64,000 nt of DNA from Kiritimatiellia bacterium (GTDB lineage: Bacteria > Verrucomicrobiota > Kiritimatiellia > RFP12 > UBA3636), in assembly GCA_017648065.1 (NCBI GenBank), contig JAGCJJ010000007.1, positions 4,167-68,166 of the forward strand, given 5' to 3'. How positions within the stretch are numbered: position 1 is the stretch's first letter; every line of letters starts with the position of its first letter. A program made the position numbers and the translations under genes. Below are positions 9,928 to 27,968 of the stretch, piece after piece. Below the pieces are notes generated by a model, which was not told where the DNA came from, made no database searches, and was given only the letters and a program-made list of their open reading frames with translations.

Positions 9928-9957
9928 GAAAAATTTTTATCAATAAATAATTTTAAT

Positions 9958-9988
9958 AGGCAGTGGAGCAATCCACTGCCTATTTTTT
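9958..9988 (+). terminator. rho-independent terminator
   Basis: AGGCAGTGGA-GCAA-TCCACTGCCT followed by TATTTTTT, 31 nt after the stop codon. Confidence 0.85.
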
Positions 9989-10137: not shown

Positions 10138-10166
10138 TTGTCAAAATTAAATATTTTTTGTATAAT
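10138..10166 (+). promoter_or_regulatory. putative sigma70-type promoter (TTGTCA-17-TATAAT) of the pseudopilin operon
   Basis: Near-consensus hexamers with a 17-nt spacer, ~70 nt upstream of the gspF-like ATG. Confidence 0.45.
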
Positions 10167-10238
10167 CTTAACAAAAACCAATGGGTGTACCATATCTAGT
10201 TTTTTATAAATTTTCATCAAATCTTGGAGAATTTGTAT

Positions 10239-11477
10239 ATGCCAACATTTAATTTTAAAGCAATGGATCAAAGTGGAAAAGAGGTTTCAGGAAACCTTAC
10301 TGCTCAAAATCAGGCTGCTGCTGTAGCTATGCTTCGCAAAGAAGGATATACGCCAACATCTGTAACTGCTGCAGATGGAAGCGATAAAAAGGGCGGCTTA
10401 AATATGACAATTAAGATGCCTAAGCTTATTAAACCTCGTGTGAAAGCAAAGAATCTAATGGTGCTTACTCGTCAGCTTGCAACACTTGTTGATTCAGGTC
10501 TTCCTTTGCTACGTGGTTTGCGTATTCTTGCAAAGCAAGAGAAGAATGAAACACTAAAGCGTGCTCTTATAGGTATGAGTGAATCAGTTGAAGGTGGTTC
10601 AACATTCTCCGATGCACTTGCTCTATATCCAAAAATCTTCAATAACCTTTACATAAATATGGCAAAGGCTGGCGAGGCTGGTGGTGTGCTTGAAACTGTA
10701 TTAAACCGCTTGGCAGAATTCTTGGAAAAAGCAGAAAAAATTAAGAATAAGGTTAAGGGTGCGATGACTTACCCAATCGTAGTTCTCTGTGTTGCCTTAG
10801 GTATTACAGGCTTCTTGATGGTTACAGTTATCCCACAGTTTGAAAAGGTATTTTCAGATCTTATGGATGGAAAAGCTATGCCTGCATTAACTCAAGCAGT
10901 TATCAATTTCAGCCATAATTTTGCTGATATGGCGCCGATTTGGGCAATTGGTATTATTGCAATCGTTGTATTGCTAAATCTTTGGAATAGAACAACTGCT
11001 GGTCATTATGCTTTGGATGCGTTAAAGCTAAGAATTCCTATTATGGGTCAGTTGATTCTAAAGAGCTCTATTTCTCGTACAACACGTACATTGGGTACAC
11101 TAATGAGTTCAGGCGTACCAGTGCTTCAAGCTCTGAATATCGTGCGTGATACATCTGGCAATGCGGTTCTTGCAAAAGTTTATCAAAGCATTCATGACAG
11201 TGTAAAAGAGGGTGAAAATATGACTCCAGCTATGGAGCGCTCAAAGGTTTTTCCTGCTATGGTGGTAAGTATGGTTGATGTTGGTGAGGAGACAGGTGCT
11301 CTTCCTGATATGCTTGCTCGTGTTGCTAATACTTATGATGATGAGGTTGATACAGCAGTTGAAGCTATGACATCTATTATTGAGCCAATCCTAATCGTAT
11401 TCCTTGCATTAGTTGTTGGTACAATTGTTATTGCGATGTTTCAGCCATTGGTATCTATCATTGGTGGTATGGGTTAA
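10239..11477 (+). CDS. gspF: type II secretion / type IV pilus platform protein (GspF/PilC family, two T2SSF repeats)
   Basis: FNFKAMDQSGKEVSG N-terminus, LATLVDSGLPLLRGL, AGEAGGVLETVL, LGTLMSSGVPVLQAL, VGEETGALPDML, with three TM segments. The track start is TTG 10224; ATG 10239 is preferred. Confidence 0.9.
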   Translation: MPTFNFKAMDQSGKEVSGNLTAQNQAAAVAMLRKEGYTPTSVTAADGSDKKGGLNMTIKMPKLIKPRVKAKNLMVLTRQLATLVDSGLPLLRGLRILAKQEKNETLKRALIGMSESVEGGSTFSDALALYPKIFNNLYINMAKAGEAGGVLETVLNRLAEFLEKAEKIKNKVKGAMTYPIVVLCVALGITGFLMVTVIPQFEKVFSDLMDGKAMPALTQAVINFSHNFADMAPIWAIGIIAIVVLLNLWNRTTAGHYALDALKLRIPIMGQLILKSSISRTTRTLGTLMSSGVPVLQALNIVRDTSGNAVLAKVYQSIHDSVKEGENMTPAMERSKVFPAMVVSMVDVGEETGALPDMLARVANTYDDEVDTAVEAMTSIIEPILIVFLALVVGTIVIAMFQPLVSIIGGMG

Positions 11478-11490
11478 TAACAAATTAGAT

Positions 11491-11529
11491 GCTTTGCGTC
11501 GCAATAATAGAATATTGTGACGCAAAAGC
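11491..11529 (+). other. long intercistronic RNA hairpin between gspF and the first pseudopilin gene
   Basis: GCTTTGCGTCGCAATA-ATAGA-TATTGTGACGCAAAAGC gives a ~16-bp stem with one bulge and one G-U pair. No U-tract follows. Confidence 0.4.
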
Positions 11530-11578
11530 ATAAAGCAAGTTATTTAGATATTTGAATATTGTTACAGTTGGAGTTTTT

Positions 11579-12529
11579 ATGAATAAAGCACGAAATGGAT
11601 TTACAATTATTGAGATGATGATTGTTCTTATAATCATCGCAATTTTGGCTGGCTTTGTTTTTCGTATGATGACATTAGCAGGTCAAAAGAATGATATAGC
11701 TGCAACAAAGGCAAAGTTAGAAAAGATTTCAAATGCCTTGGAAGCATATCGTGCAGAATATGGAAGTTATCCGCCTGTTGCTATATATAGAGGCAAGCAA
11801 CCTACATTTTATGAGATCCCAGTTGGAGGAGAAAATTCTGACATGGGGTATATAACACCAGAGATGGCTGCCCGAATGCAAAATATTTCTATGCGTGATG
11901 GAAATAAGTGGAATGAGTTTCCTCTATTTACTTTTGGTTTAGCTTCATATTTTTACCCACGTTATTGGGGTATTGCTGAAAATAGAGTTCCAAAAGAGTT
12001 TTTTGGTGATTTAGATGCCGAGGACATTATAAAAAATAAAGATAACGGAGCAGATGCGGAGCGTGTAATTAATCAATGGAAAGATCATAATAACCGCAAA
12101 ACTGGTAAAGATGGTAAAAAAATTCAAATTACTGACATCAATAAAGACATGAATGTAGTTAAAAAGATTTTGCCGATGCTTGATACTGGTATTAGTTTTA
12201 AAATGGAAAATGGGAAGAAGAAGTGGGTTATGCATAAGCATGATGATGGTAACCCTAATTATGGAGTTGGTAATTGGGAATGGAATGGATCTGCAGAGTT
12301 TCAAAAAGTAGATGCCCTAGAACGTGAGTTTGAATCGTTTGAATATTTAACTCAGGGCGTTTCTTTAAAAGATGCTTGGGGAAATCATTTGCATTATCAA
12401 AGTAATCCTCCCTATGATAGTTATAGAATTTGGTCTGTAGGTGTTAATGGTAATACATGTGATCCAACTTGTGAAAATCCATCAACTTGTAGAAATTGTT
12501 CTGATGACCTTGTTGCAGGGCAACAATAA
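11579..12529 (+). CDS. GspG-like pseudopilin with a large internal insertion and Cys-rich C-terminus (316 aa)
   Basis: Class III signal MNKARNG|FTIIEMMIVLIIIAILAG, a GspG-like helix (AATKAKLEKISNALEAYRAEYGSYPP), and a GspG C-terminal motif DAWGNHLHY...YRIWSVGVNG. It ends CDPTCENPSTCRNC. An SD GGAG precedes ATG 11579. Confidence 0.75.
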   Translation: MNKARNGFTIIEMMIVLIIIAILAGFVFRMMTLAGQKNDIAATKAKLEKISNALEAYRAEYGSYPPVAIYRGKQPTFYEIPVGGENSDMGYITPEMAARMQNISMRDGNKWNEFPLFTFGLASYFYPRYWGIAENRVPKEFFGDLDAEDIIKNKDNGADAERVINQWKDHNNRKTGKDGKKIQITDINKDMNVVKKILPMLDTGISFKMENGKKKWVMHKHDDGNPNYGVGNWEWNGSAEFQKVDALEREFESFEYLTQGVSLKDAWGNHLHYQSNPPYDSYRIWSVGVNGNTCDPTCENPSTCRNCSDDLVAGQQ

Positions 12530-12541
12530 TTTATAGGAGAG

Positions 12542-13228
12542 ATGATGAGAAAAAAAGAATTCCGTTCGGGCTTCTCTTTGATGGAGCTTCTTGTAGTAAT
12601 TTCAATAATAGGTATTTTAGCCGGACTATTAATCCCTGCTGTTCAGCGTGCTAAACGCCGTGCAAAAGAGGGTGAAATACAACAAATGTGTGTGCAAATG
12701 GTAGATGCATGGAAATCTGTTCAGCTCGAAAATTTGCGTTTCCCATACAAAGATTTGATTAGTGCTTATACATCAAATCTTATTGATATTGATGGGGATT
12801 TGTGTTTCCCTATGACACCAAAGGCGGGTTCATTGTTGAATTGGTGGAAGCCACAAAATCCTTTGCCAAAGTACGATAAAATGAATTTTGATAAATATAC
12901 TAAAGGAATTAATTGGGACGACCCAACTACATGGCCGAATGATTTTGTGTATGAACGTTCTGGTATACAGAAGCAGTTTGGTGTGGTGGCTCCATGGTTG
13001 GAGATAAAATTAAATGATTCTAAGGCTGATGTAGGAACAACGGTTGATGAGTCTCAGTTGATGTGGGTCTTGATTGATTCAAATGCTGATGGCGTTTTGT
13101 CTGTCCCAACAAATATGGGAATCCCTTCAGAAAAAACAACAGATACAGATGGAAATCCTATAAAATTAGCAGCATCAGCTGCTGCATGGCTTGCTGCTGA
13201 GGATGGTACAATCATTACATCTTGGTAG
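12542..13228 (+). CDS. prepilin-type N-terminal cleavage/methylation domain protein (pseudopilin, class unclear)
   Basis: Signal ...RSG|FSLMELLVVISIIGILAGLLIPAVQRAKRRAKE. The C-terminal ...LIDSNADGVLS is reminiscent of the GspG S-x-G-x-DG ending. Confidence 0.75.
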   Translation: MMRKKEFRSGFSLMELLVVISIIGILAGLLIPAVQRAKRRAKEGEIQQMCVQMVDAWKSVQLENLRFPYKDLISAYTSNLIDIDGDLCFPMTPKAGSLLNWWKPQNPLPKYDKMNFDKYTKGINWDDPTTWPNDFVYERSGIQKQFGVVAPWLEIKLNDSKADVGTTVDESQLMWVLIDSNADGVLSVPTNMGIPSEKTTDTDGNPIKLAASAAAWLAAEDGTIITSW

Positions 13229-13255
13229 TTTTCTAGAATATTTTGAGGCATAAAA

Positions 13256-13948
13256 ATGAAAAAGAATAACGGTTTTACATTAGTAGAATTACTCATTGTA
13301 GTTGGCATCATTGGTGTGTTAATGGGTTTGTTGTCTCCAGCGATTTTGAAGGCTTCGAAAGGTGCTGTAAATAAATCACGCAAAGTAGAGATGACGGTAC
13401 TTGAAACAGCATTAACAGAGTATCATCATGATAATAAAGGATGGCCAATCCCTGCAAAACCAAAACAGGAAGGTGCTGTCTATGGAAAAAATTCAGCAGG
13501 TGTTGTTGATCCGGCAATTATAGAGTATTCTGGTGACAAAACAAAAGTTGTTTGGAATCGTCTTCTAAAGAAAGGGGCAGATTCAAAATATAATTCCCGT
13601 AAAAAGGATTATATTGATATTTCAAGTATGACTGCTATTAAGACTTACCATAAAGATAACCCTAGAAAAAATGTTGAGGGGGATAATGTTGGACGTGTTA
13701 GAGATTTGTGGGGAGATGATGCAGAGATAAAAGGCCCGTTAGTGTATTGGTGTGATTTTATTGAATGCCCTAGATGTCATGAATGGTCTACTAACCTTGA
13801 ATATTGTACAAATTTACAATGTCCAGGTCGAAATGGCGGTAAAGCTTTTCATTTTAAGAGAGCTGATAAGAGAATTAGACATCGTGGTGTAATGCCATAC
13901 AAAATTGTATTTGATTTAACATCAAATGTTGTTTATGTAAAAGAATAA
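13256..13948 (+). CDS. pseudopilin with C-terminal five-cysteine cluster (CX4CX2CX9CX4C)
   Basis: Signal MKKNNG|FTLVELLIVVGIIGVLMGLL and a GspG-like helix (VEMTVLETALTEYHHDNKGWPIP). The Cys cluster CDFIECPRCHEWSTNLEYCTNLQC lies at 13751-13822. Confidence 0.75.
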   Translation: MKKNNGFTLVELLIVVGIIGVLMGLLSPAILKASKGAVNKSRKVEMTVLETALTEYHHDNKGWPIPAKPKQEGAVYGKNSAGVVDPAIIEYSGDKTKVVWNRLLKKGADSKYNSRKKDYIDISSMTAIKTYHKDNPRKNVEGDNVGRVRDLWGDDAEIKGPLVYWCDFIECPRCHEWSTNLEYCTNLQCPGRNGGKAFHFKRADKRIRHRGVMPYKIVFDLTSNVVYVKE

Positions 13949-13974
13949 CCCAATCAATTAGAAAAATATTGATT

Positions 13975-14817
13975 ATGGTGGAGAAATCAAAAATGGGAAA
14001 AAGATTTGATAATTCTGGATTTACTTTGCTTGAGCTATTAGGCGTAATGGGCGTAATAGTGGTTATGTCTTTTTTTGTAGTAAGTGGCTATAAGAGTATT
14101 ATGCAGGGTGTAAATGATAATACTGGTGTGAAGGGCATGCGTGATGCTGTGCAACTTGCTCGTCAGCATGCAATGCTTGACAATTCACGAACATTTTTTG
14201 TCGTTACAAGTATTAACTCTTTTGTGTTGTGTAGAGATGGTGGTGTAATAACAAGTTTTGAACAAGCACAAAAAAATGTACCTTATTTAGACAATAGATC
14301 TGTGGAAGCTTTTTGGGCCTCAGATGAATGGGCAGATTGGGAAGCCTTAAGTGATGGATTCTCTTCTATATACAAAAGAGATGTGATTGAGGAGATGATT
14401 AGTAATTCATCTTCTTCGAAGTACAAGGGAATAATTATGTACGATCTCGATGAAGGTAAATTTGCTCGAGTGGCTATTCCTCCTTTTAAACAGGATAGTA
14501 CTTGGTATATCGGTTTTAATAAATCAGATATCAAAGGAGATATGTTTAAAGAAGGTAATTCTTATGGATGGATGCTTTATGAGGAGCGTTATTTACCTAA
14601 AGGTTATATTTTTGATTCAAAGCATTACAAATTAGATTCTGATGGATTGTTTGAAGTTGGTTCAGGTTCCGTTGTTTGTTTTAATCCCGATGGTTCGTTA
14701 GATTCCAGTTATGATGATGAGTTGACAATTGGTGAAGTTGATCCGACAAAACCAGATAGTATTAAAAATAAGGTTTCTGTATCTGTAGATTCAGATGGCT
14801 CTATTGAGGTCAAATAG
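13975..14817 (+). CDS. minor pseudopilin, GspH-like by position
   Basis: Signal ...DNSG|FTLLELLGVMGVIVVMSFFVV, followed by AVQLARQHAML. The start is ambiguous (TTG 13969, ATG 13975 or ATG 13993). Confidence 0.7.
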   Translation: MVEKSKMGKRFDNSGFTLLELLGVMGVIVVMSFFVVSGYKSIMQGVNDNTGVKGMRDAVQLARQHAMLDNSRTFFVVTSINSFVLCRDGGVITSFEQAQKNVPYLDNRSVEAFWASDEWADWEALSDGFSSIYKRDVIEEMISNSSSSKYKGIIMYDLDEGKFARVAIPPFKQDSTWYIGFNKSDIKGDMFKEGNSYGWMLYEERYLPKGYIFDSKHYKLDSDGLFEVGSGSVVCFNPDGSLDSSYDDELTIGEVDPTKPDSIKNKVSVSVDSDGSIEVK

Positions 14818-14848
14818 ATATTTAGGTTTTTGTGAGGAGGGAGAATTT

Positions 14849-15442
14849 ATGTCTCGAAAAGGTTTTTCATTGATTGAAGTTAATATGGCAATTTTTATAG
14901 CAGCAGCGGGCTTGTTGTCTCTTTTTACTCTTTTCCCTGCTGGTTTACGACAAAGTGAAATGTCATCAGAGGACTTATATCAGTCTACTTATGCGACATC
15001 AATATTGCAAATGATAGCAGGAAATATTGCAACAATAGATGATGTAGATGTTTGGAATGATACAGAAAAAGATTTTTGGGCAATTGCTGTAGAAGGAACG
15101 GATTTGCCAAAAAAACTTCAAAAATCAAGTCAAGCCTTGAGAACAAGTAATTTTGATAGAGAAATATTGGATCAGTATTTAGATTTTACAGAAGGTGGAG
15201 CTCGTAATGTAGAAGATAATGTTTGGTATACGGGCTCAGAATTTTCTGGTAGTACAAAATCTGATTCATTACCGGAACAATATTTAATTCGTGTCTTTAG
15301 AAAAGGCAATACTATGCCGAACGTTTATGTGGTTTCTGTTGTTTGTTCTTCTATAAAACCCCCAGCGATTTACTATCAAAATTCTGTTTATAGTATGGAG
15401 TTTGCTTTTTATGGAAAAACTTGGTCCGCTGGACCACAGTAA
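14849..15442 (+). CDS. minor pseudopilin, GspI-like by position
   Basis: Signal MSRKG|FSLIEVNMAIFIAAAGLLSLFTLF, with SD GAGGAGGGA upstream of ATG 14849. The track ORF start at 14795 overlaps the previous gene. Confidence 0.7.
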   Translation: MSRKGFSLIEVNMAIFIAAAGLLSLFTLFPAGLRQSEMSSEDLYQSTYATSILQMIAGNIATIDDVDVWNDTEKDFWAIAVEGTDLPKKLQKSSQALRTSNFDREILDQYLDFTEGGARNVEDNVWYTGSEFSGSTKSDSLPEQYLIRVFRKGNTMPNVYVVSVVCSSIKPPAIYYQNSVYSMEFAFYGKTWSAGPQ

Positions 15443-15490
15443 ACATTATGTGTAAAGCCAAATGTGTAGTAATAGAAAGTTGGAGAGAAT

Positions 15491-16138
15491 ATGAATTTAG
15501 GTGCAAATAAAGGCTTTTCTTTAATTGAAGTAATGGTTGCTACGACTATTCTGATGATTATAGTAATAATGGTTGGTAATATTTTTAGACATAGTTCAAA
15601 TGCATGGGAAACAGGCTATGCTGTAGCTGAAGGAACTAGTGGAATTCGTAGTGTATTAGGAACTATACATCGAGAGTTATCACAAGCAGTGGATGGAAGG
15701 AAATGTGGTGAAAAATGGGAATCTCCTATTCTTATTAAGGGTGATTCAATTGAATTTTATAGATATGTTGAACCAACAAAAAAAGGGTCTACAGAGCCTG
15801 AGGTTCAAAAGATTACATATACACTAGGTAAAACGGTTAAACGAAAAGTAAAAACAGGCAAAGAAGACGAAGGATCAGAAACGATTCTATATTCAAAGAG
15901 AACTGCTGTTGGAGGCAATTCTGATGCAGATGTTATCTTTGAAGTAGTCCCTCCATCTGACTTAAATATGAATAATATGAATCTAAATGAAGGGGTAAGT
16001 GAAGACGATTTTTGGACTGTTCCATTTGTTGTCGTTAAAGCAAAAATTTCTAGAAAAAGTACATTTGCAGGTATGGAAGCACGTTCGTATGGCCCAGATG
16101 GTAAAAGAGGCACAGAGGACGATATTATTGCTCGTTAA
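15491..16138 (+). CDS. minor pseudopilin, GspJ-like by position
   Basis: Signal MNLGANKG|FSLIEVMVATTILMIIVIMVGNIF, followed by ...NAWETG. Confidence 0.7.
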   Translation: MNLGANKGFSLIEVMVATTILMIIVIMVGNIFRHSSNAWETGYAVAEGTSGIRSVLGTIHRELSQAVDGRKCGEKWESPILIKGDSIEFYRYVEPTKKGSTEPEVQKITYTLGKTVKRKVKTGKEDEGSETILYSKRTAVGGNSDADVIFEVVPPSDLNMNNMNLNEGVSEDDFWTVPFVVVKAKISRKSTFAGMEARSYGPDGKRGTEDDIIAR

Positions 16139-16163
16139 ACCTTGATGCAGATTGGATTTATTT

Positions 16164-16640
16164 ATGAAAAAGAATAATGGTTTTACAGTTATAGAGTTGC
16201 TAGTTGTTACTGGCATTATTGCAATTCTTATGGGTATGATAGGCACTTCTGCATTTATTGCACGTAGTCAGGCATATAAGGCACAGGCAAGAGCAGAGAC
16301 TCAGCAGTTGATAACTGCCGTAAAAGCAATTTGGATTGCCCGTGAGGATAATAAAGTCCCTATAAACACAGGAACTGTAAAAATGACTGCTGATAATGTA
16401 AAGAAATTTACTGTTGAAAATGATACAGGTGTCAGAAGTTATTTAGAAATCCCAACTTCACGATTAAATGAGGGTGGTTACCTTGACCCCTGGGGTAACG
16501 AGTATGAGTACACCATTTCAGATATAAAAGAAGAGGAACTGCCAGACGAAGTTTTTCAAATTTCAGTTTCTTTCCTAAATGCAGATAGATTTCATTACAA
16601 GAAAGATATTGCTATAGATATTATAGAAGACGAAAATTAA
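16164..16640 (+). CDS. gspG: GspG-like major pseudopilin of near-canonical size (158 aa)
   Basis: Signal MKKNNG|FTVIELLVVTGIIAILMGMI, then QAYKAQARAETQQLITAVKAI, then DPWGNEYEY (16485-16511), the GspG signature. The track start is 16152. Confidence 0.8.
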   Translation: MKKNNGFTVIELLVVTGIIAILMGMIGTSAFIARSQAYKAQARAETQQLITAVKAIWIAREDNKVPINTGTVKMTADNVKKFTVENDTGVRSYLEIPTSRLNEGGYLDPWGNEYEYTISDIKEEELPDEVFQISVSFLNADRFHYKKDIAIDIIEDEN

Positions 16641-16698
16641 TCTTTTGTCATGTTTGAATATTGTGTTTGAATATTGTTAGTAATTAAGGAGATTTTTA

Positions 16699-19600
16699 AT
16701 GAAAATAAATCGAGAAGATAATGGCTCCGCATTGGTTATTGTATTAGGTATGCTTGCGGTGTTAATGCTTATGGCTGTGGCTTTCTCCATCATTATGCGA
16801 ACAGAGCGTGCCGGAACAACAAACCTTCGTCATAGCCTAACTGCGCAGAATGGCATTAATTCCGCAATTGCACTTGCTATCCACGATATTGAAGAAGATG
16901 TAGGTGATGAGATTATTCCGGATTGGGAAAATTATGTTTTTTCTTCGTTTGGCTTAGGAACAACGAAAGATTTAAATAATGCAAAGCTTTCTATTCTTAA
17001 TGAGCGAGCACAACGCCATTTAAATCCTACAACTCGCGCATTGGTAAAAAATGCAACAGTAGATTGGCGTTTATTATATTCTGGTATCCCATTGAGTAAT
17101 TACTCCGCAAATAGTGATGATTATCTTGATGATGATACTATTGTTGGTCGTGTTGCGTATGTTGCTGTAAATACTACTGGATATATTGACCCTAATAAGG
17201 TTACATATTTAAAAGATTATGACAGTAAGGAACTGACAAAAGAACCTATAATTGCCGTTCCTGAAGATTCTCCACAATTTAACGATACATCGTTTGCTAA
17301 AAATGGCGGGAAAAATGTATTATTCAGTAAGTCTGACTTTGTGACGAAAAGACAGGAAAAAAATCGTGAAGGATTTACTTCTTTTGCTGATTTATATACA
17401 TTGAATGAAAGTGAGATGTATGACTCAAGTGGTAAACTTAAAAAGAGCCCACAGATGTTTATAAATCTTTTTTCACCAAAAGAACCAAATAAATTGTTTC
17501 TTCCAGATATTTTTGGATCTTCAGCATCATTTGGAATGAGTCCATATCCTCCACAGGTAGAAAGGGATGTAAATGAACCTTATGCAGATCCAAATTCGGA
17601 TGACTATGTTGTTCTTAGGGAGCCTGTAAAAATAGAAAGCGAACCTAGAAACGTTACGCTTACAGAAGATGTAATGCGAAATATATATGTAGCTTTTTGT
17701 AATATATTTGCGCGTAAGAATTGGATTGAAGAATCTTCTTATGGTGAAGGTGAAATTCAATATGAGAATAATAATGAGATTTCAATCGGGAATGTAGAGT
17801 GGCCGTTCAGGCATATGGGTGTGATGAAGAATAGTGTACTTACTCGTGCTGATTTGGCTTTATTATCATTTGCTGAATTTTATACTTATAAGAGGGGAAA
17901 TGATAGCGATTTTAACAGTAATAAGTATATAGAGATGGCAATTGATGTAATAAATGATGGTGGTGGCCGTCCGAAAATTAGTGATGTTCTTGATGCTCCA
18001 TGCTTTAAACATGTTCCAATGGTTTCATCAATTATTGGATATACAGATAACCCAGAAGTTCCAGATGATAATGATATTAAAATTTACTATCATAATGGTA
18101 ATGGAAAATTTTCTCCTGTAAAAGATGATGATGTTATTCCTCCAAAAAAAACAACAGCAAAATATTATGCGAAATACGAACTTCCTATAAATTTTGTTGT
18201 CTCAGCAACAAGTCCATATCTTTATAAAGGCGGAGGATCTCCAACTGCTGCAAAAATGAATGTGAAGATTATGTTTGGCCCTAATGCTAATGGTCAAAAT
18301 ATCTTTGCAGATATCCAAAAAAATATTAATGGAGATCCAAAAATAGTTATTGATCCACAATCAAATTTTGCTAAGAAAGTAAAGGGTGGGCATGATTTTT
18401 CCGAATCTGAAAAATATAACAAATCACTTGTAACAAGAAGTATTAAAGCAGAAGATGATTCATTAACAGAAAAAATAGAGATTTATATTCAGTGTAAAGA
18501 CCCTTCTAGAATATCAACGGAAGAAGCTCCAATCGCAATTAAAGATATTAAAAACTTATTTAGATGGGAAGATGCACAATTTGATAAAAGTTCATTGGAT
18601 AAGTATTCCATTGATATATTTGCGCAAATAGATATAAAAGTCGGCAGTAAAGATGTTCAACTTGTCCCAGGTAAAAAGATTCGTAGTAAGAGCGGACCTG
18701 AAGGATATATTCATTTTAAGCTTCCATTATTTTTTGGAGAAGTTAAAGGAAATAATGGAAATAATGGGAATAAAGGAAATAAAGAAATAAATCACCATCG
18801 CTTTGGATATGCAATGGTTATTGATCCACGCTTTGCTGCAGCAACTTATTGTTTGAATGAATTCAGAGAAGAAAGTACTGTTGAGTCTTTCCCATTTTGG
18901 GTAAATAATGCAATGGCTGAAAATTTAGGAGAATTTTCTAAACTAAAGGAATTTGAAATGGATGCAAAGTCCATTGACGATTTAGTTCCAGGTGGTAGAA
19001 CTCCAGATATTGCAAATCCATATGGTAAACTTGTAATGGGTTTTAATGCTGAAGGAGATGGGGTAGAGGATCATTCTTTCTGGGAGAACATTATTAAATT
19101 AGGTGATTTTTCTAAAGAACAAGGTATTCCATGTCCAGACACTTTACATAAGATTCCTGGAGGAGTTCAGCTTGTTAATGATAGTGGTTTTGTTGGAAAG
19201 GACTTAGAAATTGATTTTGGTATCTATGGCTCAGATATATCTAGCTTGGGTGAACTTGGTTCATTATGTATTGGACCATGGGAAACAATTTCTCTTTATA
19301 GAACACAAACACTTAATAAACGTAATAATAGTAGTCAGTATGATTTTCATACAGTTTTTGATTTCTTTACATTAGATATTCCTTCTAAATTGTCTGATAA
19401 TAAGGTGAATTTAAATACTCCGCCATTAGTTAAAATAAATGGGAAGAAAAATGTTCAAATTGTTAAAGAAGGAGATACGGAATTTGGTGGCCAAAAATTA
19501 AGATTGAGTAGACAAAACGAAATTAGAGCAGAAAAATATGTTTCTTTGGCAAGAGGAATGAATTTAGAACCTTTGACTGCAGTTATTTGTAGTTTAGATA

Positions 19601-20106
19601 CCAATTTTGACGACAAATCAAATAAAAGCACAGAATGGTTGCCGTTGTTTAATTATGAAGAGGCGCAAGAAATTGCTTCTCGTATCATTTATCAAAATAC
19701 AGGTGATGGTAATTGTTATTATTTTAAAGATATTTCTCAAATTGGTTATTCTTATACAAGAGATTCTTTATTAAATTATGTGATTGGAAAAATGGGAGAC
19801 GATGCTCTTAGAGATTCTTGGCGTGAGAATTTGCTTGGCAGTATAGCAAAGTATGTAACCACACGTGGTCAAACTTTTACAATTGTTGTTCGCTCAGATG
19901 CTTTTGCGCCTAAATACGGTTCGGACGTAGATGGTACTACGCTTGCAAGTAAGGTCGCTGTTGTCGAAGCATGGCGAGATACAGAGCCAGCACGAGATAA
20001 AGATGGAAATCCAATAACTATACCAGTTTATAATAGTCAAGGTAGACAAACTGGCGAAAAAAAATATCACAACTGGCATATTCGCTCTGTTCGAATTGTT
20101 GATTAG
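16699..20106 (+). CDS. giant GspK-like minor pseudopilin (1135 aa)
   Basis: The N-terminus EDNGSALVIVLGMLAVLMLMAVAFSIIMRTERAGTTNLRHSLTAQNGINSAIALAI matches the GspK pattern (no F+1/E+5, R-x-E after the helix). It occupies the last position of the pseudopilin block. I recognise no motif in the remaining ~1050 aa. Confidence 0.7.
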   Translation: MKINREDNGSALVIVLGMLAVLMLMAVAFSIIMRTERAGTTNLRHSLTAQNGINSAIALAIHDIEEDVGDEIIPDWENYVFSSFGLGTTKDLNNAKLSILNERAQRHLNPTTRALVKNATVDWRLLYSGIPLSNYSANSDDYLDDDTIVGRVAYVAVNTTGYIDPNKVTYLKDYDSKELTKEPIIAVPEDSPQFNDTSFAKNGGKNVLFSKSDFVTKRQEKNREGFTSFADLYTLNESEMYDSSGKLKKSPQMFINLFSPKEPNKLFLPDIFGSSASFGMSPYPPQVERDVNEPYADPNSDDYVVLREPVKIESEPRNVTLTEDVMRNIYVAFCNIFARKNWIEESSYGEGEIQYENNNEISIGNVEWPFRHMGVMKNSVLTRADLALLSFAEFYTYKRGNDSDFNSNKYIEMAIDVINDGGGRPKISDVLDAPCFKHVPMVSSIIGYTDNPEVPDDNDIKIYYHNGNGKFSPVKDDDVIPPKKTTAKYYAKYELPINFVVSATSPYLYKGGGSPTAAKMNVKIMFGPNANGQNIFADIQKNINGDPKIVIDPQSNFAKKVKGGHDFSESEKYNKSLVTRSIKAEDDSLTEKIEIYIQCKDPSRISTEEAPIAIKDIKNLFRWEDAQFDKSSLDKYSIDIFAQIDIKVGSKDVQLVPGKKIRSKSGPEGYIHFKLPLFFGEVKGNNGNNGNKGNKEINHHRFGYAMVIDPRFAAATYCLNEFREESTVESFPFWVNNAMAENLGEFSKLKEFEMDAKSIDDLVPGGRTPDIANPYGKLVMGFNAEGDGVEDHSFWENIIKLGDFSKEQGIPCPDTLHKIPGGVQLVNDSGFVGKDLEIDFGIYGSDISSLGELGSLCIGPWETISLYRTQTLNKRNNSSQYDFHTVFDFFTLDIPSKLSDNKVNLNTPPLVKINGKKNVQIVKEGDTEFGGQKLRLSRQNEIRAEKYVSLARGMNLEPLTAVICSLDTNFDDKSNKSTEWLPLFNYEEAQEIASRIIYQNTGDGNCYYFKDISQIGYSYTRDSLLNYVIGKMGDDALRDSWRENLLGSIAKYVTTRGQTFTIVVRSDAFAPKYGSDVDGTTLASKVAVVEAWRDTEPARDKDGNPITIPVYNSQGRQTGEKKYHNWHIRSVRIVD
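18748..18790 (+). repeat. imperfect 9-bp tandem repeat (GGAAATAAT-like, ~5 units) encoding GNNGNNGNKGNKEIN
   Basis: Read directly: ggaaataat ggaaataat gggaataaa ggaaataaa gaaataaat, inside the GspK-like gene. Confidence 0.7.
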
Positions 20107-24111: not shown

Positions 24112-24332
24112 AATCTAAATTTACCTAAACAAAATGAATGCAATTATTTTCTCATAATAAATCAAAACTTACAAGTTTAATTTAGTTAAAAATCTTTGCA
24201 CCTGAAAACAGAAAGCTAATTGCCGATTTAGATTGAAGTATATTTCTTGGTTTTGATACAATAAAAATAAATTTTTGTTTTTATTTAACTTATTGTTTGT
24301 CAATATATTATATATAATGATTGGATAGAACT

Positions 24333-26279
24333 ATGAATTCGTTAAAAAAGATTACTGTTGCATTTGTTTTGTTACTAATATCTGTATTTGCATTTGCTAA
24401 TGTAATTCAGCCAGATGGTTCTCTTGAATATATCTTGGCTGATGGTGATGATTACATTGATACAGGTATCCCTGCACGAACAGGCGTAAAAATTGAAGCT
24501 GTAGTTGAATGGACTAATGTATCAGGAGATTATGCTTTCTTTGCTGCTCGCGTTGGTGCAGATAGATTTTATCCTATATACATTTATAATTCATGCCTTG
24601 GAATTGGTGTTAATGGCGAATTTAAATACCTTAATCAAAATGATATTACAAACTTAAATGCTAATCATACTGATGACGGTAATGTAAAAGTGGAAGCAGG
24701 CAGAAAGTATAAAGTAATTTCAGATTTTGCAGACGAATTACAGACAATTTCAATTGATGGTAAAACTGTTTATTCCGGCACCCATGCAACAGGTATGGAT
24801 TTGGGGATTAATCTTTTCCTCTTTGCGATGAATTATTCATCAAATAATTATCCTTCAAAAGCAAAGCTGTATTCTGCAAAGATATGGTTAGATGGCGAGC
24901 TTGTTCGTGAATATGTACCTCATATTGAAGATGGTTATTCAGGCTTGTATGATAAAATAAATGGCACATTTTCAATGCCTATAGGAACAGGTCGTACATT
25001 TGGTGTTTCTCCTCGTAAATTGCCTGGAAAACCAGATGCTTTTGTAGATTGGATTGGTTCCGGAAATGATACTATTATGGATTTAGGTATAACAGCAAGA
25101 ACCGGCACAACAATTGAAGGCTCAATGGAGTGGACGTATATTGATGGTGGTCAAGAGTCTACTTTTATAGGTGCTAAAGGTTCACCAAATTATTTAGTAC
25201 CTATGCATGAATTTGATGGAAATATGTGGATTGCTCATGGAACAACAAAGGTTTATTTGACAGATGAAAATGGTAATTCACGAAAGTTTGATGTTAATAA
25301 AAGATATGATTTCAGATTTGTTGCAGACGAAAATGAGGCCTCTTTTACTCTTAACGGTGAAAAATTGTATGAAATCACAAACCCAGATGTTTTTGATTCA
25401 AATGAAACGCTAAAATTGTTTGCATTAGGCAATCGCTATTGTGCATCTTATTCTAAGTGCTATAAGCTTAAAATTTGGCAGGATGGTGTCTTGATTGGTG
25501 ATTATTATCCTGCTGTAAAAGATGGTAAGACATGCTTGTACAACAGTGTTACAGATGAATGCTGTTTCCCATGGGTTGATTTGGCAGGCAAATACGCTGG
25601 TAAGCCAGTCGTGGAGATGGGAAGCTCTGTCTATAAGCAGCCAAAATATCCTAAGTATAGGGTGGAATATTTAACCTCTGATTCTGTGAAAAATAATACC
25701 TCATTCCCACCTCAATATATCGATATTGGTATCAATGGTAAGAGTGGAATAAAGGTAGAAGCTAAGGTTGAGTGGCTAAATACAAGTGCAGATAATGGTT
25801 TGATAGGTTCAAAAGGAGATGGAGATAACAGAATATATGCAATCCATACCTACGTCAATACATTGTGTTGCGGATATGATAAATTTATTCGTTCAAACGC
25901 TGAGTTAAGCACAAATAGGGTATATGATGTTGTTTCTATCCTTAATGTAGGTGAACAAAAGATGTTTCTTGATGGTGTTGAGGTTTATTCTGCTACCAAT
26001 ACTAAAGAATTAGATAATGGATATTCAATGTATATCTTCTGTGAAAATGTAACAGGTCAGCCAAGATATTTCTCAAATGCACGTATCTATTCTATGAAGA
26101 TATGGGAAAATGATGTTTTAATTAGAAATTTAATTCCTGTTATCGCAGATAATATGGAGGTTTGCTTCTATGATAAGGTTAATAATACGTTTTATGGAAG
26201 TGAAGTTTCATCAGGCTTCTGGAGCTATGGAAATATACTTGGCGCAGTATATAATGGGTCAACAATTATAATTAGATAA
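24333..26279 (+). CDS. secreted protein built from three tandem copies of an uncharacterised ~190-200-aa domain
   Basis: Signal peptide MNSLKKITVAFVLLLISVFAFA. The repeat landmarks recur three times: YIDTGI/IMDLGI/YIDIGI, G..IE..(V/M)EW, then KLYSAKIWLDGELVREYVP / YKLKIWQDGVLIGDYYP / RIYSMKIWENDVLIRNLIP, then GLYDKINGTF / CLYNSVTDEC / CFYDKVNNTF. Confidence 0.8.
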   Translation: MNSLKKITVAFVLLLISVFAFANVIQPDGSLEYILADGDDYIDTGIPARTGVKIEAVVEWTNVSGDYAFFAARVGADRFYPIYIYNSCLGIGVNGEFKYLNQNDITNLNANHTDDGNVKVEAGRKYKVISDFADELQTISIDGKTVYSGTHATGMDLGINLFLFAMNYSSNNYPSKAKLYSAKIWLDGELVREYVPHIEDGYSGLYDKINGTFSMPIGTGRTFGVSPRKLPGKPDAFVDWIGSGNDTIMDLGITARTGTTIEGSMEWTYIDGGQESTFIGAKGSPNYLVPMHEFDGNMWIAHGTTKVYLTDENGNSRKFDVNKRYDFRFVADENEASFTLNGEKLYEITNPDVFDSNETLKLFALGNRYCASYSKCYKLKIWQDGVLIGDYYPAVKDGKTCLYNSVTDECCFPWVDLAGKYAGKPVVEMGSSVYKQPKYPKYRVEYLTSDSVKNNTSFPPQYIDIGINGKSGIKVEAKVEWLNTSADNGLIGSKGDGDNRIYAIHTYVNTLCCGYDKFIRSNAELSTNRVYDVVSILNVGEQKMFLDGVEVYSATNTKELDNGYSMYIFCENVTGQPRYFSNARIYSMKIWENDVLIRNLIPVIADNMEVCFYDKVNNTFYGSEVSSGFWSYGNILGAVYNGSTIIIR

Positions 26280-26294
26280 ATGCGAAATTGAATT

Positions 26295-27968
26295 GTGAAG
26301 CATATATTTGGAACAGTATTAGCTACTTTGGGTGCTGCAACTTTGTCAGCAGCAACATTAACTGTAACATCAACTTTAGATGATGATTCTGCAGGAACTC
26401 TAAGATCAGTTCTTGCCAGTGCTTCTGATGGAGATATCATTGTTTTTGATGATTCTCTGCAGGGGCAAACAATTAAAATTGTTCATAGAACACATGCTGA
26501 TTGGGCAATTCCTATCTTTGCATCTGTTTCAATTGTTGGACCAGAAGATAAGTCAATAACACTGGATGGTGGCTTTAATGGTGGTCAAGACAGCGGTTCT
26601 CGTATCTTTGCTGTAAATAATCCAAGTGCATCATTATCATGTAAAAATCTTGTTTTTCAAAATGCTAATGGCCGTGACTGGGGCTCACAAATTGCTTATG
26701 GTGGTGCAATTTATTCAGAGGGTGATGTCTTTCTAGATAGTTGCTCTTTTGTAAGTAATAGGGTAGGTGCTATCAAGATTTCAGGCCGTAAATCGGTTAC
26801 TGGTGGTGCCGCTGCACATGTGCTTGGTAATTTAACTGTTACAAATTGCGAATTTATTGGAAATATGGCTCCATCTGGACCTATCATGGGTTGTGTCCTT
26901 ATTCCTCTAGGTGATAATTTTGTAATAAAGAATAGCAATTTTATAGAGAATAAAAGTAGCTCCTATTGTGCAGGAATATGTATTTCTCCAGAGGTTAGCA
27001 ATGTATTGATTGAAGATTGTAACTTTATTGGTAATATAGCTGGAGGACATAGCTGTCGTGGCGGAGCAATTTATGTGTTGAGAAATACAGCTGCTAAAAT
27101 ATTGATAAACAGGTGTATTTTCCGTAATAACGGATTTAAAGGTACAGGTACATTAGGTGGTTCAATATACATGGATAGTGGTACAAATAAATTTGTTATT
27201 GCAAATTCAGAGTTCTCAGGATGTCGTACAGGTGGCGCAGGCGGTGGCAGTGTGCGTGTGGAAGGTGGTCACGAATGTATTTTAGTAAATTGTACAGCAG
27301 CTAATAATACAGCAGGCAGCCATGGAGCTGGCTTGGATTTACGCAGCCCTTCATATTTTGTTAATTGCACAGTTGTGGGTAATGCTTTATATAATCTAGG
27401 AGATAAGTCTGCCTCTGGAGGTATTTATCATGGCAGTACAAAGTTAAAACTCCTTAATACCGTTGTTGTTCATAATTACTATATGAACAGTGGTAATGTA
27501 GGAACTACTGGTAATATTTTCAATAAGATAAGTTCATCAGATTTATTGGCCACAGCATCATTGGCAGATGGTTCTGTGGCAGATGATGAGAAAGAGCTTT
27601 TTGCTGAGTATGGCACAATGGATAGAATTTATCAGCACTATGATACAAATCCAACTGAATTTGTTTTTGCTGAGCCAGTCCCTGTTCCTTTATTGAATAA
27701 CGATGAGAAGCGTTCTCGCGTTGTAGAAATAGCAAAGCTCGGTCCTCTTGACGGCAAGGGTTATCTTGTAAAGATGACAGATGATTTTTCTTATGTTGCA
27801 TATTCAAAAGACAGAGGTGCCACATGGACTACTTTCTATGGAGAGGAGTCTGATGGAGCAAAGCTACTTTTACATGACCAACGTGGTGTTCAATATAGCG
27901 AAAAGCGTGTACCAATTGGTGCCGCAGCATTTGATTTCCCACTATCAACAATTATTATGATAAATTAG
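26295..27968 (+). CDS. secreted right-handed parallel beta-helix repeat protein (Pmp-like GGAI/FxxN repeats)
   Basis: Signal peptide (GTG start). The N-terminal LTVTSTLDDDSAGTLRSVLASASDGDIIVFD is followed by repeated GGAIY/GGSIY and F(V/I)xN / CxF motifs: YGGAIYSEG...CSFVSN, CEFIGN, NFIEN, CNFIGN, RGGAIYV, CIFRNN, GGSIYMD. There is no C-terminal autotransporter barrel. Confidence 0.65.
   Translation: MKHIFGTVLATLGAATLSAATLTVTSTLDDDSAGTLRSVLASASDGDIIVFDDSLQGQTIKIVHRTHADWAIPIFASVSIVGPEDKSITLDGGFNGGQDSGSRIFAVNNPSASLSCKNLVFQNANGRDWGSQIAYGGAIYSEGDVFLDSCSFVSNRVGAIKISGRKSVTGGAAAHVLGNLTVTNCEFIGNMAPSGPIMGCVLIPLGDNFVIKNSNFIENKSSSYCAGICISPEVSNVLIEDCNFIGNIAGGHSCRGGAIYVLRNTAAKILINRCIFRNNGFKGTGTLGGSIYMDSGTNKFVIANSEFSGCRTGGAGGGSVRVEGGHECILVNCTAANNTAGSHGAGLDLRSPSYFVNCTVVGNALYNLGDKSASGGIYHGSTKLKLLNTVVVHNYYMNSGNVGTTGNIFNKISSSDLLATASLADGSVADDEKELFAEYGTMDRIYQHYDTNPTEFVFAEPVPVPLLNNDEKRSRVVEIAKLGPLDGKGYLVKMTDDFSYVAYSKDRGATWTTFYGEESDGAKLLLHDQRGVQYSEKRVPIGAAAFDFPLSTIIMIN

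What the first reader, a model, noticed from the sequence alone, without database searches (positions are those of the whole stretch)
16699..20106. Giant (1135-aa) GspK-like terminal pseudopilin
Seen: the first ~60 aa (GSALVIVLGMLAVLMLMAVAFSIIMRTERAGTTNLRHSLTAQNGINSAIALAI) follow the GspK pattern and the gene sits last in the pseudopilin block. Established: canonical GspK proteins are roughly 320-340 aa and cap the pseudopilus tip with GspI/J. Here an extra ~800 aa has no motif I can recognise. It is Asn/Asp/Lys-rich, carries a GNNGNNGNKGNK low-complexity linker, and ends in a C-terminal region ...FTIVVRSDAFAP...VAVVEAWRD. Inference: the tip subunit may carry adhesin, enzyme or cargo-recognition modules, analogous to large tip-associated minor pilins in T4P systems.
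Basis: partly seen in the sequence, partly recalled or inferred. Interest (0 to 1): 0.75.

Follow-up and report, generated by a model that had tools for sequence, protein, structure and literature searches.

The report
Giant GspK-type pseudopilus tip protein
This 1135-residue gene is a real, conserved and unnamed relative of GspK, the small protein that caps the tip of a type II secretion filament, enlarged about 3.5-fold by lineage-specific insertions of unknown function in gut Kiritimatiellia and Lentisphaerae.

Summary
The ORF 16699-20106 (+) is real. It is identical to NCBI MBO7298275.1, a "hypothetical protein" from a Kiritimatiellae MAG. It is the last gene of a nine-gene operon: gspF, seven prepilin-type genes, then this gene. 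That order recurs in nearly every related locus fetched from Kiritimatiellia and Lentisphaerales MAGs. Full-length relatives are 690-1380 aa, so it is not a fusion artefact.

The N-terminus is GspK-like. It has a class III signal (G9|SALVI), lacks Glu5 although all seven upstream pseudopilins have it, and scores 92-96% probability in hhalign over about 70-85 columns.

Family-level profile tests also recover GspK's alpha-domain and its C-terminal half, in the same order, against empty shuffled and reversed controls. For the target alone only the N-terminus is detectable.

About 600-800 aa are poorly conserved inserts with no Pfam, PDB or Foldseek match. The protein fails every curated GspK and Verru_Chthon-A threshold.

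Best reading: a tip or priming minor pseudopilin with a greatly enlarged cap. What the inserts do (adhesion, cargo contact or secretin contact) is untested.

It is a new variant of a known kind, of moderate interest.

The parts
9955..9984 (.). Bidirectional terminator-like hairpin that closes the upstream porin gene, marking the 5' boundary of the operon
   Evidence: 13-bp stem with a T-run on both strands
10138..10166 (+). Best sigma-70-like promoter match upstream of gspF
   Evidence: TTGTCA-17-TATAAT, 11 of 12 matches. This is a consensus match only.
10224..11477 (+). GspF/PilC-type inner-membrane platform protein, first gene of the operon
   Evidence: Pfam T2SSF 4.5e-65. NCBIfam PilC 397 bits and GspF 384 bits, both below cut-off.
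11552..12529 (+). ps1: GspG-like pseudopilin of 325 aa with Glu5. The T2SSG domain is matched in two stretches, N-terminal (aa 16-74) and C-terminal (aa 262-302), about 190 aa apart.
   Evidence: Pfam N_methyl and T2SSG in two stretches; TIGR01710 at 2.4e-15. Its orthologues are the best hits of E. coli GspG.
12542..13228 (+). ps2: prepilin-type protein, 228 aa, GFSLME
13256..13948 (+). ps3: prepilin-type protein, 230 aa, GFTLVE
13969..14817 (+). ps4: prepilin-type protein, 282 aa, with a weak GspH/ComGD-class N-terminus
   Evidence: ComGD 3.8e-7, GspH 0.026
14795..15442 (+). ps5: prepilin-type protein of the GspI/PilV class (weak). The real start is probably the internal MSRKG|FSLIE.
   Evidence: PilV TIGR02523 2.8e-6, Verru_Chthon B 2.8e-6, XpsI 0.068
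15491..16138 (+). ps6: prepilin-type protein of the GspJ class (weak)
   Evidence: Verru_Chthon C 5.4e-7, GspJ PRK08808 0.004. E. coli GspJ hits its orthologues in L006, L013, L016 and L024.
16152..16640 (+). ps7: small GspG-like pseudopilin, 162 aa
   Evidence: TIGR01710 2.3e-7 over aa 10-122
16699..20106 (+). The giant GspK-type minor pseudopilin, 1135 aa (NCBI MBO7298275.1, 'hypothetical protein')
16699..16923 (+). aa 1-75: class III signal (leader MKINREDNG, cleavage after the invariant G9), hydrophobic alpha1 without Glu5, the RTERAGTTNLR motif, and the start of the loop that leads to the invariant W76
   Evidence: hhalign against GspK gives probability 91.7-96.2%. NF037980 aligns aa 8-68. 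G9, S10, R34, E36, R37 and W76 are invariant. The AF2 model has a helix at 9-68.
17134..17196 (+). aa 146-166: strand plus loop, GRVAYVAVNTTGYIDPN. The spacing G..(D/N)+8..(D/N)+14.N+16 is the same as in the GspK consensus G........D.Q.CFNLN.
   Evidence: hhalign suboptimal hit, target 150 aligned to GspK 91, P=0.003. AF2 strand at 149-158.
17665..18018 (+). aa 323-440: helical block equivalent to GspK's alpha-domain (the DWIDxD calcium-site region). The acidic motif is lost in the target's own subclade.
   Evidence: The family HMM of aa 300-440 hits GspK residues about 121-193 in 76 of 99 canonical GspKs at iE<1 (13 at <0.01), against 0-2 in controls. Alignment block shown.
18019..18798 (+). 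aa 441-700: beta-rich insert of about 14 strands (block pLDDT mostly 70-89), poorly conserved and with no known relative
18748..18783 (+). GNNGNNGNKGNK low-complexity loop with no counterpart in the family consensus
18799..18873 (+). aa 701-725: conserved block G(W/Y)A..DPRFA of unknown role
19225..19473 (+). aa 843-925: S.GELG..IGPWET.SL...DFH.V.DFFT...VNLN block, equivalent to GspK's SELR.v.G ... INvNT (second helix-hairpin-helix-like part)
   Evidence: hhalign of aa 840-1000 against GspK 178-220 gives P=0.0009. The GspK HMM hits this region in 31 relatives at iE<1, against 0 in controls.
19768..20103 (+). aa 1024-1135: two helices and a five-strand antiparallel sheet (TTRGQTFTIVVRSDA..., VAVVEAWRD). 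This is the presumed C-terminal half of the pilin sheet.
   Evidence: It is the most conserved region after alpha1. AF2 strands run 1058-1134. It is collinear with GspK's v.S.yF strands, but weakly (P 0.07-0.12 alone).

Best explanation
The gene encodes the GspK-equivalent (tip or priming) minor pseudopilin of a type II secretion-like type IV filament machine specific to Kiritimatiellota and Lentisphaerota.

**Shown**
- It has a prepilin-type N-terminus without Glu5.
- It is homologous to GspK over alpha1.
- At family level it is collinear with GspK's alpha-domain and C-terminal half.
- It holds an obligatory last position in a conserved operon of gspF plus seven pseudopilin genes.

**Inferred from established GspK/GspI/GspJ biology (Korotkov & Hol 2008, as summarised in PMC7248040)**
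- A prepilin peptidase cleaves it after G9.
- Its alpha1 nucleates a tip complex with the I-like and J-like subunits ps5 and ps6 in the inner membrane.
- G-like subunits then polymerise underneath, so this protein stays at the filament tip. Lacking Glu5, it can only sit at the top.

**Inferred about the inserts**
- The 600-800 extra residues lie between the conserved core blocks, mostly within the alpha-domain that faces away from the filament in canonical GspK.
- They would therefore form a cap of about 125 kDa facing the secretin, the cargo or the outside.
- Their low conservation (14-21% identity, against 31-52% in the core) fits an exposed, ligand-facing surface. The ligand is unknown.
For: **N-terminus**
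- NCBIfam GspK matches aa 8-68. 25 of 34 homologues match, best E 4.3e-9.
- hhalign of the family against 34 canonical GspKs gives probability 91.7-96.2% and E 8e-7 to 2e-9. The alignment includes the conserved Trp.
- The cleavage site G9/S10 is invariant.
- The giant protein has Ile at +5. All seven neighbouring pseudopilins have Glu5.

**Rest of the core**
- A GspK HMM run against 184 family proteins gives 14 extra alpha-domain hits and 31 extra hits in the second helix-hairpin-helix region at iE<1.
- Eleven controls, with the native head kept and the tail shuffled or reversed, gave none.
- 95 successive hit pairs are collinear and none is discordant.
- In the reverse direction, the family block aa 300-440 hits the alpha-domain of 76 of 99 canonical GspKs at iE<1, against 0-2 in controls.
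- aa 840-1135 against GspK 178-313 gives P=0.0014.

**Context**
- The nine-gene order recurs in nearly every locus long enough to show it; one, L027, has the pseudopilin genes in a different order. The loci come from Kiritimatiellia and Lentisphaerales MAGs, and the flanking genes differ.
- ps5 and ps6 match the I/PilV and J classes weakly.

**Integrity**
- Full-length relatives are 690-1380 aa. There are 1406 clusters at E<=1e-3.
- The full-length AF2 model has pTM 0.76.
- The C-terminal 436 aa modelled alone does not fold (pLDDT 47). This fits a discontinuous domain that needs the N-terminal parts.
Against: - For the target sequence alone, only the N-terminal 70 aa or so match GspK (row P0001). 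The rest rests on family profiles with modest P-values (1e-3 to 1e-2).
- It fails the curated cut-offs: NF037980 scores 17.5 bits against 130, and there is no hit to Pfam PF03934 or PF21687.
- Foldseek of the full model against PDB lists no GspK among the 50 best matches shown and nothing with E<=0.001; the best E is 0.05.
- No GspD, E, C, L, M or O homologue lies within the 64-kb window or within 10 kb of the gene in the related loci fetched. The machine type (T2SS or pilus) and the existence of a secretin are therefore not shown.
- The putative calcium-site motif is degenerate in the target's subclade.
- A 125-kDa cap is hard to reconcile with a purely periplasmic piston.
Confidence: 0.72

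Rival explanations
1. The molecule is the same, but the machine is different. The operon builds a surface-exposed type IV pilus-like fibre. The giant K subunit is its tip adhesin. It combines in one polypeptide the roles of the K-type minor pilin and of a PilY1/PilC-like tip effector, and binds polysaccharide, mucin or other cells.
For: - GspF scores as well against the PilC models (397 and 387 bits) as against GspF (384 bits), all below cut-off.
- The mass of about 125 kDa equals that of PilY1-type tip proteins, which do travel on pilus tips (PMC9934059, PMC8179133).
- Modular pilins that carry ligand-binding modules at filament tips are widespread (PMC8179133).
- The inserts are beta-rich and evolve fast.
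- The hosts are gut and rumen polysaccharide degraders (record titles).
Against: - No lectin, CBM, vWA or PilY1 (PF05567) signature appears in the target or in 40 relatives.
- No Foldseek match is significant.
- The best-scoring major-subunit candidate, ps1, carries the T2SSG (GspG) domain.
- No retraction ATPase or secretin is nearby.
Confidence: 0.25
2. It is not a filament subunit at all. It would be an uncleaved bitopic inner-membrane protein whose large periplasmic part acts as an assembly-platform or secretin-coupling element, replacing the GspC/L/M proteins that are missing from the locus.
For: - No GspC, L or M homologue is found in the window or in the flanks of the related loci fetched.
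- The protein has a single N-terminal transmembrane helix followed by a very large, compact ectodomain (pTM 0.76).
Against: - The N-terminus matches GspK specifically, not generic transmembrane helices. Reversed and shuffled controls give no hits.
- The Gly-Ser at the predicted cleavage site is invariant.
- The alpha-domain and C-terminal blocks are collinear with GspK.
- The gene is placed directly after the I-like and J-like genes, as gspK is.
Confidence: 0.08
3. The long ORF is an assembly or frameshift artefact that joins a normal gspK to downstream genes.
For: None found. The only oddity is the low-complexity GNN loop.
Against: - The identical protein occurs on 4 contigs.
- Ten further homologues, from distinct clusters at 90% identity and carried on different contigs, align over 100% of the query at 41-61% identity.
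- There are hundreds of distant full-length relatives with conserved N- and C-terminal blocks.
- The full-length AF2 model is compact.
Confidence: 0.01

Closest known systems
GspK / XcpX / EpsK, the T2SS minor pseudopilin (NCBIfam NF037980; Pfam PF21687 + PF03934; ETEC GspI-J-K crystal structure, Korotkov & Hol 2008, cited in PMC7248040)
   Same: - Class III signal with Gly at -1 and no Glu5.
- Homologous alpha1 and conserved Trp.
- Same spacing in the G...D...N.N strand motif.
- Alpha-domain and second helix-hairpin-helix block recoverable at family level, in the same order.
- Last gene of the pseudopilin block, after the I-like and J-like genes.
- Already the largest pseudopilin, and already a pilin with a domain inserted into its sheet.
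   Different: - 1135 aa against about 320-340 aa.
- At least four additional inserts, the largest about 260 aa and beta-rich.
- Fails all curated score cut-offs.
- The acidic calcium-site motif is lost in the target's subclade.
- No gspC/D/E/L/M/O nearby.
- Seven rather than four accompanying pseudopilins, several of them also oversized.
Verru_Chthon cassette protein A (TIGR02600; profile of 1296 positions), with cassette proteins B, C and D (TIGR02598, TIGR02599, TIGR02596)
   Same: - It is also a giant protein. From my memory of the TIGRFAMs description, not checked here, it follows short prepilin-type proteins in Verrucomicrobia.
- It is the best NCBIfam hit of the target (E 1.7e-5), and 32 of 34 homologues match it.
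- ps5, ps6 and ps7 give their weak best or near-best hits to B, C and D.
   Different: - Only the first 57 or so profile positions align.
- The score is 22.9 bits against a cut-off of 332. Nine more distant family members were scanned: five matched it and four did not, none above 31 bits.
- It is therefore an analogous or very distant sister family, not the same family.
- No literature on either family was found.
Modular type IV pilins (S. sanguinis PilB and PilC; CofB/TcpB; PMC8179133, PMC9934059)
   Same: A pilin module carries bulky extra modules and can therefore sit only at the filament tip. The concept of presenting an effector on the tip is the same.
   Different: - In those proteins the module is grafted onto the C-terminus through a linker and is often a recognisable domain (vWA, ConA-like lectin).
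- Here the extra mass is interleaved with the pilin/GspK core and matches nothing known.
- At 1135 aa it exceeds the 860-aa extreme case (12 repeats of one motif) singled out in that survey (PMC8179133).
PilY1 / PilC tip adhesin of type IVa pili
   Same: Similar mass (about 115-125 kDa). Proposed to ride on the K-containing minor-pilin tip complex.
   Different: PilY1 is not a pilin and has a C-terminal beta-propeller (PF05567). No such match was found here. The target has its own prepilin N-terminus.

Membership tests
GspK (T2SS minor pseudopilin K) | Class III (prepilin) signal: short polar leader ending in Gly, followed by about 20 hydrophobic residues | tested here: met
   MKINREDNG|SALVIVLGMLAVLMLMAVAFS. 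G9 and S10 are invariant in 34 sequences.
GspK (T2SS minor pseudopilin K) | No Glu at position 5 of the mature protein, unlike G, H, I and J | tested here: met
   Ile at +5. All seven upstream pseudopilins have Glu5.
GspK (T2SS minor pseudopilin K) | Score above the curated family thresholds (NCBIfam NF037980 at 130 bits or more; Pfam PF03934 / PF21687 gathering scores) | tested here: not met
   NF037980 scores 17.5 bits over aa 8-68 only. There is no Pfam hit at E<=1.
GspK (T2SS minor pseudopilin K) | Profile-level homology over alpha1 and the following conserved Trp | tested here: met
   hhalign probability 91.7-96.2%, E 7.7e-7 to 2.3e-9.
GspK (T2SS minor pseudopilin K) | Alpha-domain inserted in the pilin sheet, with the DWIDxD...GAED calcium-site region | tested here: inconclusive
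   At family level, the block aa 300-440 hits GspK residues about 121-193 in 76 of 99 GspKs at iE<1, against 0-2 in controls. Distant members keep LxDxxDxD. The target's subclade has FAEFYTYK instead.
GspK (T2SS minor pseudopilin K) | C-terminal half (SELR.v.G, INvNT, terminal strands) and the overall GspK fold | tested here: inconclusive
   hhalign P=0.0009-0.0014, collinear. 31 relatives are hit by the GspK HMM, against 0 in controls. Foldseek against PDB found nothing significant, and the fragment model failed.
GspK (T2SS minor pseudopilin K) | Size of about 300-350 aa | tested here: not met
   1135 aa. Full-length family members are 690-1380 aa, against mostly 310-340 aa for the canonical GspKs sampled.
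GspK (T2SS minor pseudopilin K) | Encoded last in the pseudopilin block, after the I-like and J-like genes, within a T2SS locus | tested here: inconclusive
   Its position after ps5 (I/PilV-like) and ps6 (J-like) is conserved in nearly every related locus long enough to show the operon. However, a small G-like gene (ps7) intervenes, and gspC/D/E/L/M/O are absent from the window and from 10 kb on each side of the gene in related loci.
GspK (T2SS minor pseudopilin K) | Forms the tip heterotrimer with GspI and GspJ and primes pseudopilus assembly | not testable with these tools
   Needs multimer modelling or experiments.
Verru_Chthon cassette protein A (TIGR02600) | Score of 332.3 bits or more over the 1296-position profile | tested here: not met
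   22.9 bits, profile positions 1-57 only. Of nine distant relatives scanned, five matched at no more than 31 bits and four did not match.
Modular type IV pilins (in the sense of PMC8179133) | N-terminal pilin signature plus one or more additional structural modules | tested here: met
   Prepilin N-terminus plus more than 600 aa outside the GspK-equivalent blocks. The modules are inserted rather than C-terminally grafted, and they have no database signature.
PilY1 / PilC tip adhesins | C-terminal PilY1-type beta-propeller (PF05567); not a pilin | tested here: not met
   No Pfam hit. The protein has its own prepilin signal.

The most novel reading that the evidence does not exclude
Kiritimatiellota and Lentisphaerota may possess a distinct class of type IV filament. 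In it the K subunit has absorbed the job of a separate tip effector (PilY1-like). A fast-evolving cap of about 125 kDa would be displayed beyond the outer membrane to capture polysaccharide, mucin or partner cells, or to hand cargo to the secretin. The pseudopilins of this filament are also systematically enlarged. If so, it is a new functional branch of the T2SS/T4P superfamily rather than an oversized GspK.
Probability: 0.2. Interest if true: 0.7.

Novelty: new variant of a known kind. Interest (0 to 1): 0.5.

Why it matters
GspK is thought to cap a short periplasmic pseudopilus that works as a piston under the secretin. A conserved cap 3.5 times larger, in two phyla that depend on exporting very large sets of sulfatases and glycoside hydrolases, does not fit that picture easily. 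Either the periplasmic piston tolerates a very bulky tip, or these "T2SS" operons build something that reaches the cell surface.

The family is large, with 1406 clusters at 50% identity. It has no Pfam or NCBIfam model and is annotated only as hypothetical. Defining it would improve annotation of PVC genomes. It would also give T2SS and T4P researchers a natural experiment on what the tip subunit does.

Tried and rejected
- **Sequence searches against PDB.** phmmer and a profile hmmsearch found no hit even at E<=10.
- **Foldseek with the full-length AF2 model.**
  - Against PDB the best E was 0.05, with TM below 0.1. The matches were generic beta-sandwich or propeller hits (GH2, integrin alpha, arrestin), not interpretable.
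  - Against BFVD there was nothing.
- **AF2 of the C-terminal 436 aa alone (A3).** The aim was a cleaner GspK match. The model failed (pLDDT 47, pTM 0.38), so it was not searched.
- **hhalign of single C-terminal sub-blocks from the 34-sequence alignment.** E was 0.008-0.09, too weak. Significance appeared only with the 166-sequence alignment and the population-level HMM tests.
- **The very C-terminal sheet (aa 1000-1135).** It gave no significant GspK match in either direction.
- **Internal repeats among the inserts.** None found.
- **Pfam on the largest and the shortest family members**, to find a recognisable inserted module. None found.
- **Membership of TIGR02600.** Rejected.
- **Literature searches** for Verru_Chthon/TIGR0260x, and for pseudopilins in Lentisphaerae, Kiritimatiellae or Verrucomicrobia. 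Nothing specific was found.
- **Search for gspC/D/E/L/M/O near the operon.** None found.

Full report
ORF 16699-20106 (+) starts at an ATG and encodes 1135 aa. An AAGGAG ribosome-binding site lies 7 nt upstream. The protein is identical to NCBI MBO7298275.1, [quoted passage not shown]. Its composition (D, S, N and K each about 7.5-7.8%) is only mildly skewed for a locus of about 35% GC.

**The gene closes a self-contained pseudopilus operon.**
- A strong hairpin terminator lies at 9955-9984. The best promoter-like site lies at 10138-10166.
- After these comes a GspF/PilC-type gene at 10224-11477 (Pfam T2SSF, 4.5e-65).
- Seven ORFs follow (11552-16640), each with a prepilin G|F(T/S)xxE N-terminus. 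Then comes the giant gene.
- By weak, mostly N-terminal matches the seven are:
  - ps1: GspG-like. Its T2SSG domain is matched in two stretches about 190 aa apart.
  - ps4: GspH/ComGD-like.
  - ps5: GspI/PilV-like.
  - ps6: GspJ-like.
  - ps7: a small G-like protein.
- No terminator follows the giant gene. A cytidine-deaminase-like gene starts 19 nt downstream.
- No homologue of GspC, D, E, L, M or O is present in the 64-kb window or within 10 kb of the gene in the related loci.

**It is not an artefact, and it belongs to a large unnamed family.**
- The search for homologous proteins returned 43 relatives of 850-1295 aa. The ten closest distinct ones cover 100% of the query at 41-61% identity.
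- A profile search of 1.84 billion cluster representatives found 1406 proteins at E<=1e-3, 958 at <=1e-10 and 164 at <=1e-30. Full-length members are 690-1381 aa.
- 166 of the 184 family proteins fetched are at least 650 aa. The median length of all 184 is 1009 aa.
- All names available are "hypothetical protein".
- A scan of one genome per species found 24 loci. All are MAGs labelled Kiritimatiellia/-ae, Lentisphaerae/-ales or "uncultured Verrucomicrobia", and many come from rumen or rectum.
- In every locus long enough, the same nine genes occur in the same order. L027 is the one exception, with the pseudopilin genes permuted. The flanking genes differ between loci.

**The N-terminus is GspK-like.**
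- The mature N-terminus would be SALVIVLG..., with Ile rather than Glu at +5. All seven neighbours have Glu5. G9 and S10 are invariant.
- NCBIfam gives only two hits, both confined to aa 8-68. One is Verru_Chthon cassette protein A (TIGR02600; E 1.7e-5; 22.9 bits against a cut-off of 332). The other is GspK (NF037980; E 0.0024; 17.5 bits against 130).
- 25 of 34 homologues match GspK (best E 4.3e-9) and 32 of 34 match TIGR02600.
- I built an alignment of 34 canonical GspKs starting from E. coli K-12 gspK. Against it, hhalign gives 91.7% probability (E 7.7e-7) over 84 columns, including the conserved Trp. With a 166-sequence family alignment this rises to 96.2% (E 2.3e-9).

**Beyond the N-terminus, the GspK signal is detectable only at family level.** The target alone shows nothing there (row P0001).
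- *GspK HMM against the family.* Run against the 184 family proteins, it gives additional hits to GspK's alpha-domain (14 proteins at iE<1) and to its second helix-hairpin-helix region (31 at iE<1).
- *Controls.* Ten shuffles and one reversal, each keeping the native first 110 aa, gave none. All 95 successive hit pairs are collinear.
- *Family HMM against GspKs.* An HMM of family block aa 300-440 hits residues about 121-193 of canonical GspKs in 76 of 99 at iE<1 (13 at <0.01). Controls gave 0-2. The block aa 840-1135 hits 22, against 0-3 in controls.
- *hhalign.* aa 840-1135 against GspK 178-313 gives P=0.0014. aa 840-1000 against GspK 178-220 gives P=0.0009.
- *Motifs that line up:*
  - GRxAFVAxDTTGxxDxN (aa 150-166) has the same spacing as GspK's G........D.Q.CFNLN.
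  - LxDxxDxD matches DWIDxD.
  - S.GELG matches SELR.v.G.
  - VNLN matches INvNT.
  - TTRGQTF matches v.S.yF.
- *Limits.* The extreme C-terminal sheet on its own is not significant. The family sequences are related to one another, so the hit counts are not independent events, but the controls are empty.

**Architecture.**
- Conservation mapping shows core blocks at aa 1-75, 101-125, 151-175, 376-400, 426-450, 701-725, 851-925, 951-975, 1026-1100 and 1126-1135.
- The core blocks are 31-52% identical in distant homologues. The inserts between them (176-322, 441-700, 726-842 and 926-1023) are only 14-21% identical.
- The largest insert (441-700) is beta-rich, with about 14 strands and block pLDDT mostly 70-89. 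It sits between the two halves of the GspK alpha-domain, so it is an insertion within GspK's own insertion.
- Even the shortest members (about 690 aa) are twice the size of GspK.
- The full-length AF2 model (pLDDT 72, pTM 0.76) has a 60-residue N-terminal helix and a C-terminal five-strand sheet.
- The C-terminal 436 aa modelled alone does not fold (pLDDT 47). This fits a discontinuous domain.
- The inserts have no internal repeats and no Pfam domain in the target or in 40 relatives. They have no PDB sequence relative and no significant Foldseek match in PDB or BFVD.
- The acidic calcium-site-like motif is kept in distant members but lost in the target's subclade.
- The GNN loop is a low-confidence loop with no counterpart in the family consensus.

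**Mechanism.**
- Established knowledge: GspK lacks Glu5, caps the GspI-J-K tip complex and primes pseudopilus assembly. Its inserted domain points away from the filament (PMC7248040; PMC8179133 treats GspK as a modular pilin).
- By homology and gene position, this protein is the K-type tip or priming subunit of the filament built by this operon.
- Its inserts would form a cap of about 125 kDa. These steps are inferred, not shown.
- Two points remain open. One is whether the machine is a periplasmic T2SS pseudopilus or a surface pilus. The other is whether the cap binds cargo, the secretin or an external ligand.
- The F protein scores equally against the PilC and GspF models. The ATPase and the secretin are not in view.

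**Comparison with known families and novelty.**
- The protein works like GspK. It meets the qualitative hallmarks: prepilin signal, no Glu5, alpha1 homology and gene position. It fails every curated threshold and the size criterion.
- It is not a member of TIGR02600. That is the only curated family of giant proteins with a similar N-terminus, and it appears to be uncharacterised in the literature searched.
- It fits the concept of modular pilins (PMC8179133, PMC9934059). It differs in that the extra mass is interleaved rather than C-terminally grafted, and in that it is longer than the 860-aa extreme case singled out in that survey.
- I rate it a new variant of a known kind, of moderate interest. 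A T2SS or T4P specialist would find the conserved giant tip notable, but its function remains open.

Noticed in passing
window 11552-12529 (+): The GspG-like pseudopilin ps1 is 325 aa, more than twice the canonical size. Its T2SSG/GspG match comes in two stretches, aa 16-74 and aa 262-302, about 190 aa apart. Orthologues in related loci are about 265-350 aa. Oversizing is therefore a property of several subunits of this system, not only of K.
   Followed up: partly
window 10224-20106, compared with loci L001-L028: The operon contains only gspF and pseudopilin genes. No GspC, D, E, L, M or O homologue lies in the window or within 10 kb of the gene in any related locus. The rest of the machine must be encoded elsewhere, or it differs from the canonical one.
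   Followed up: partly
window 52775-53683 (+): A 302-aa protein has a single T2SSF domain (Pfam 6.6e-14), the TadB/TadC-like architecture. It lies isolated between the ribosomal protein S1 gene and nadC, with no other pilus genes among the neighbouring ORFs that were scanned.
   Followed up: no
window 24321-26279 and 26295-27968 (+): Two adjacent large proteins look secreted. The first (652 aa) has only weak LamG/ConA-like matches spread along it. The second (557 aa) has no Pfam hit and looks beta-helix-like by eye. They end in similar short hydrophobic tails (...GSTIIIR and ...LSTIIMIN), which might be a lineage-specific C-terminal sorting signal.
   Followed up: no
window 14795-15442 (+): The longest ORF of ps5 overlaps ps4 by 23 nt and has an unusually long 22-aa leader. 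The real start is probably the internal Met that gives MSRKG|FSLIE.
   Followed up: no
window 8878-9927 (+): An LbtU-family siderophore porin-like outer-membrane protein (NCBIfam 7.6e-29, above its cut-off) lies immediately upstream of the operon. A strong bidirectional terminator separates the two.
   Followed up: no
family alignment A1, around target aa 376-405: Distant members keep an acidic LxDxxDxD..PG motif that resembles GspK's calcium-binding DWIDxD loop. The target's subclade (P0001-P0012) has replaced it with FAEFYTYK, which suggests loss of a metal site in this lineage.
   Followed up: partly
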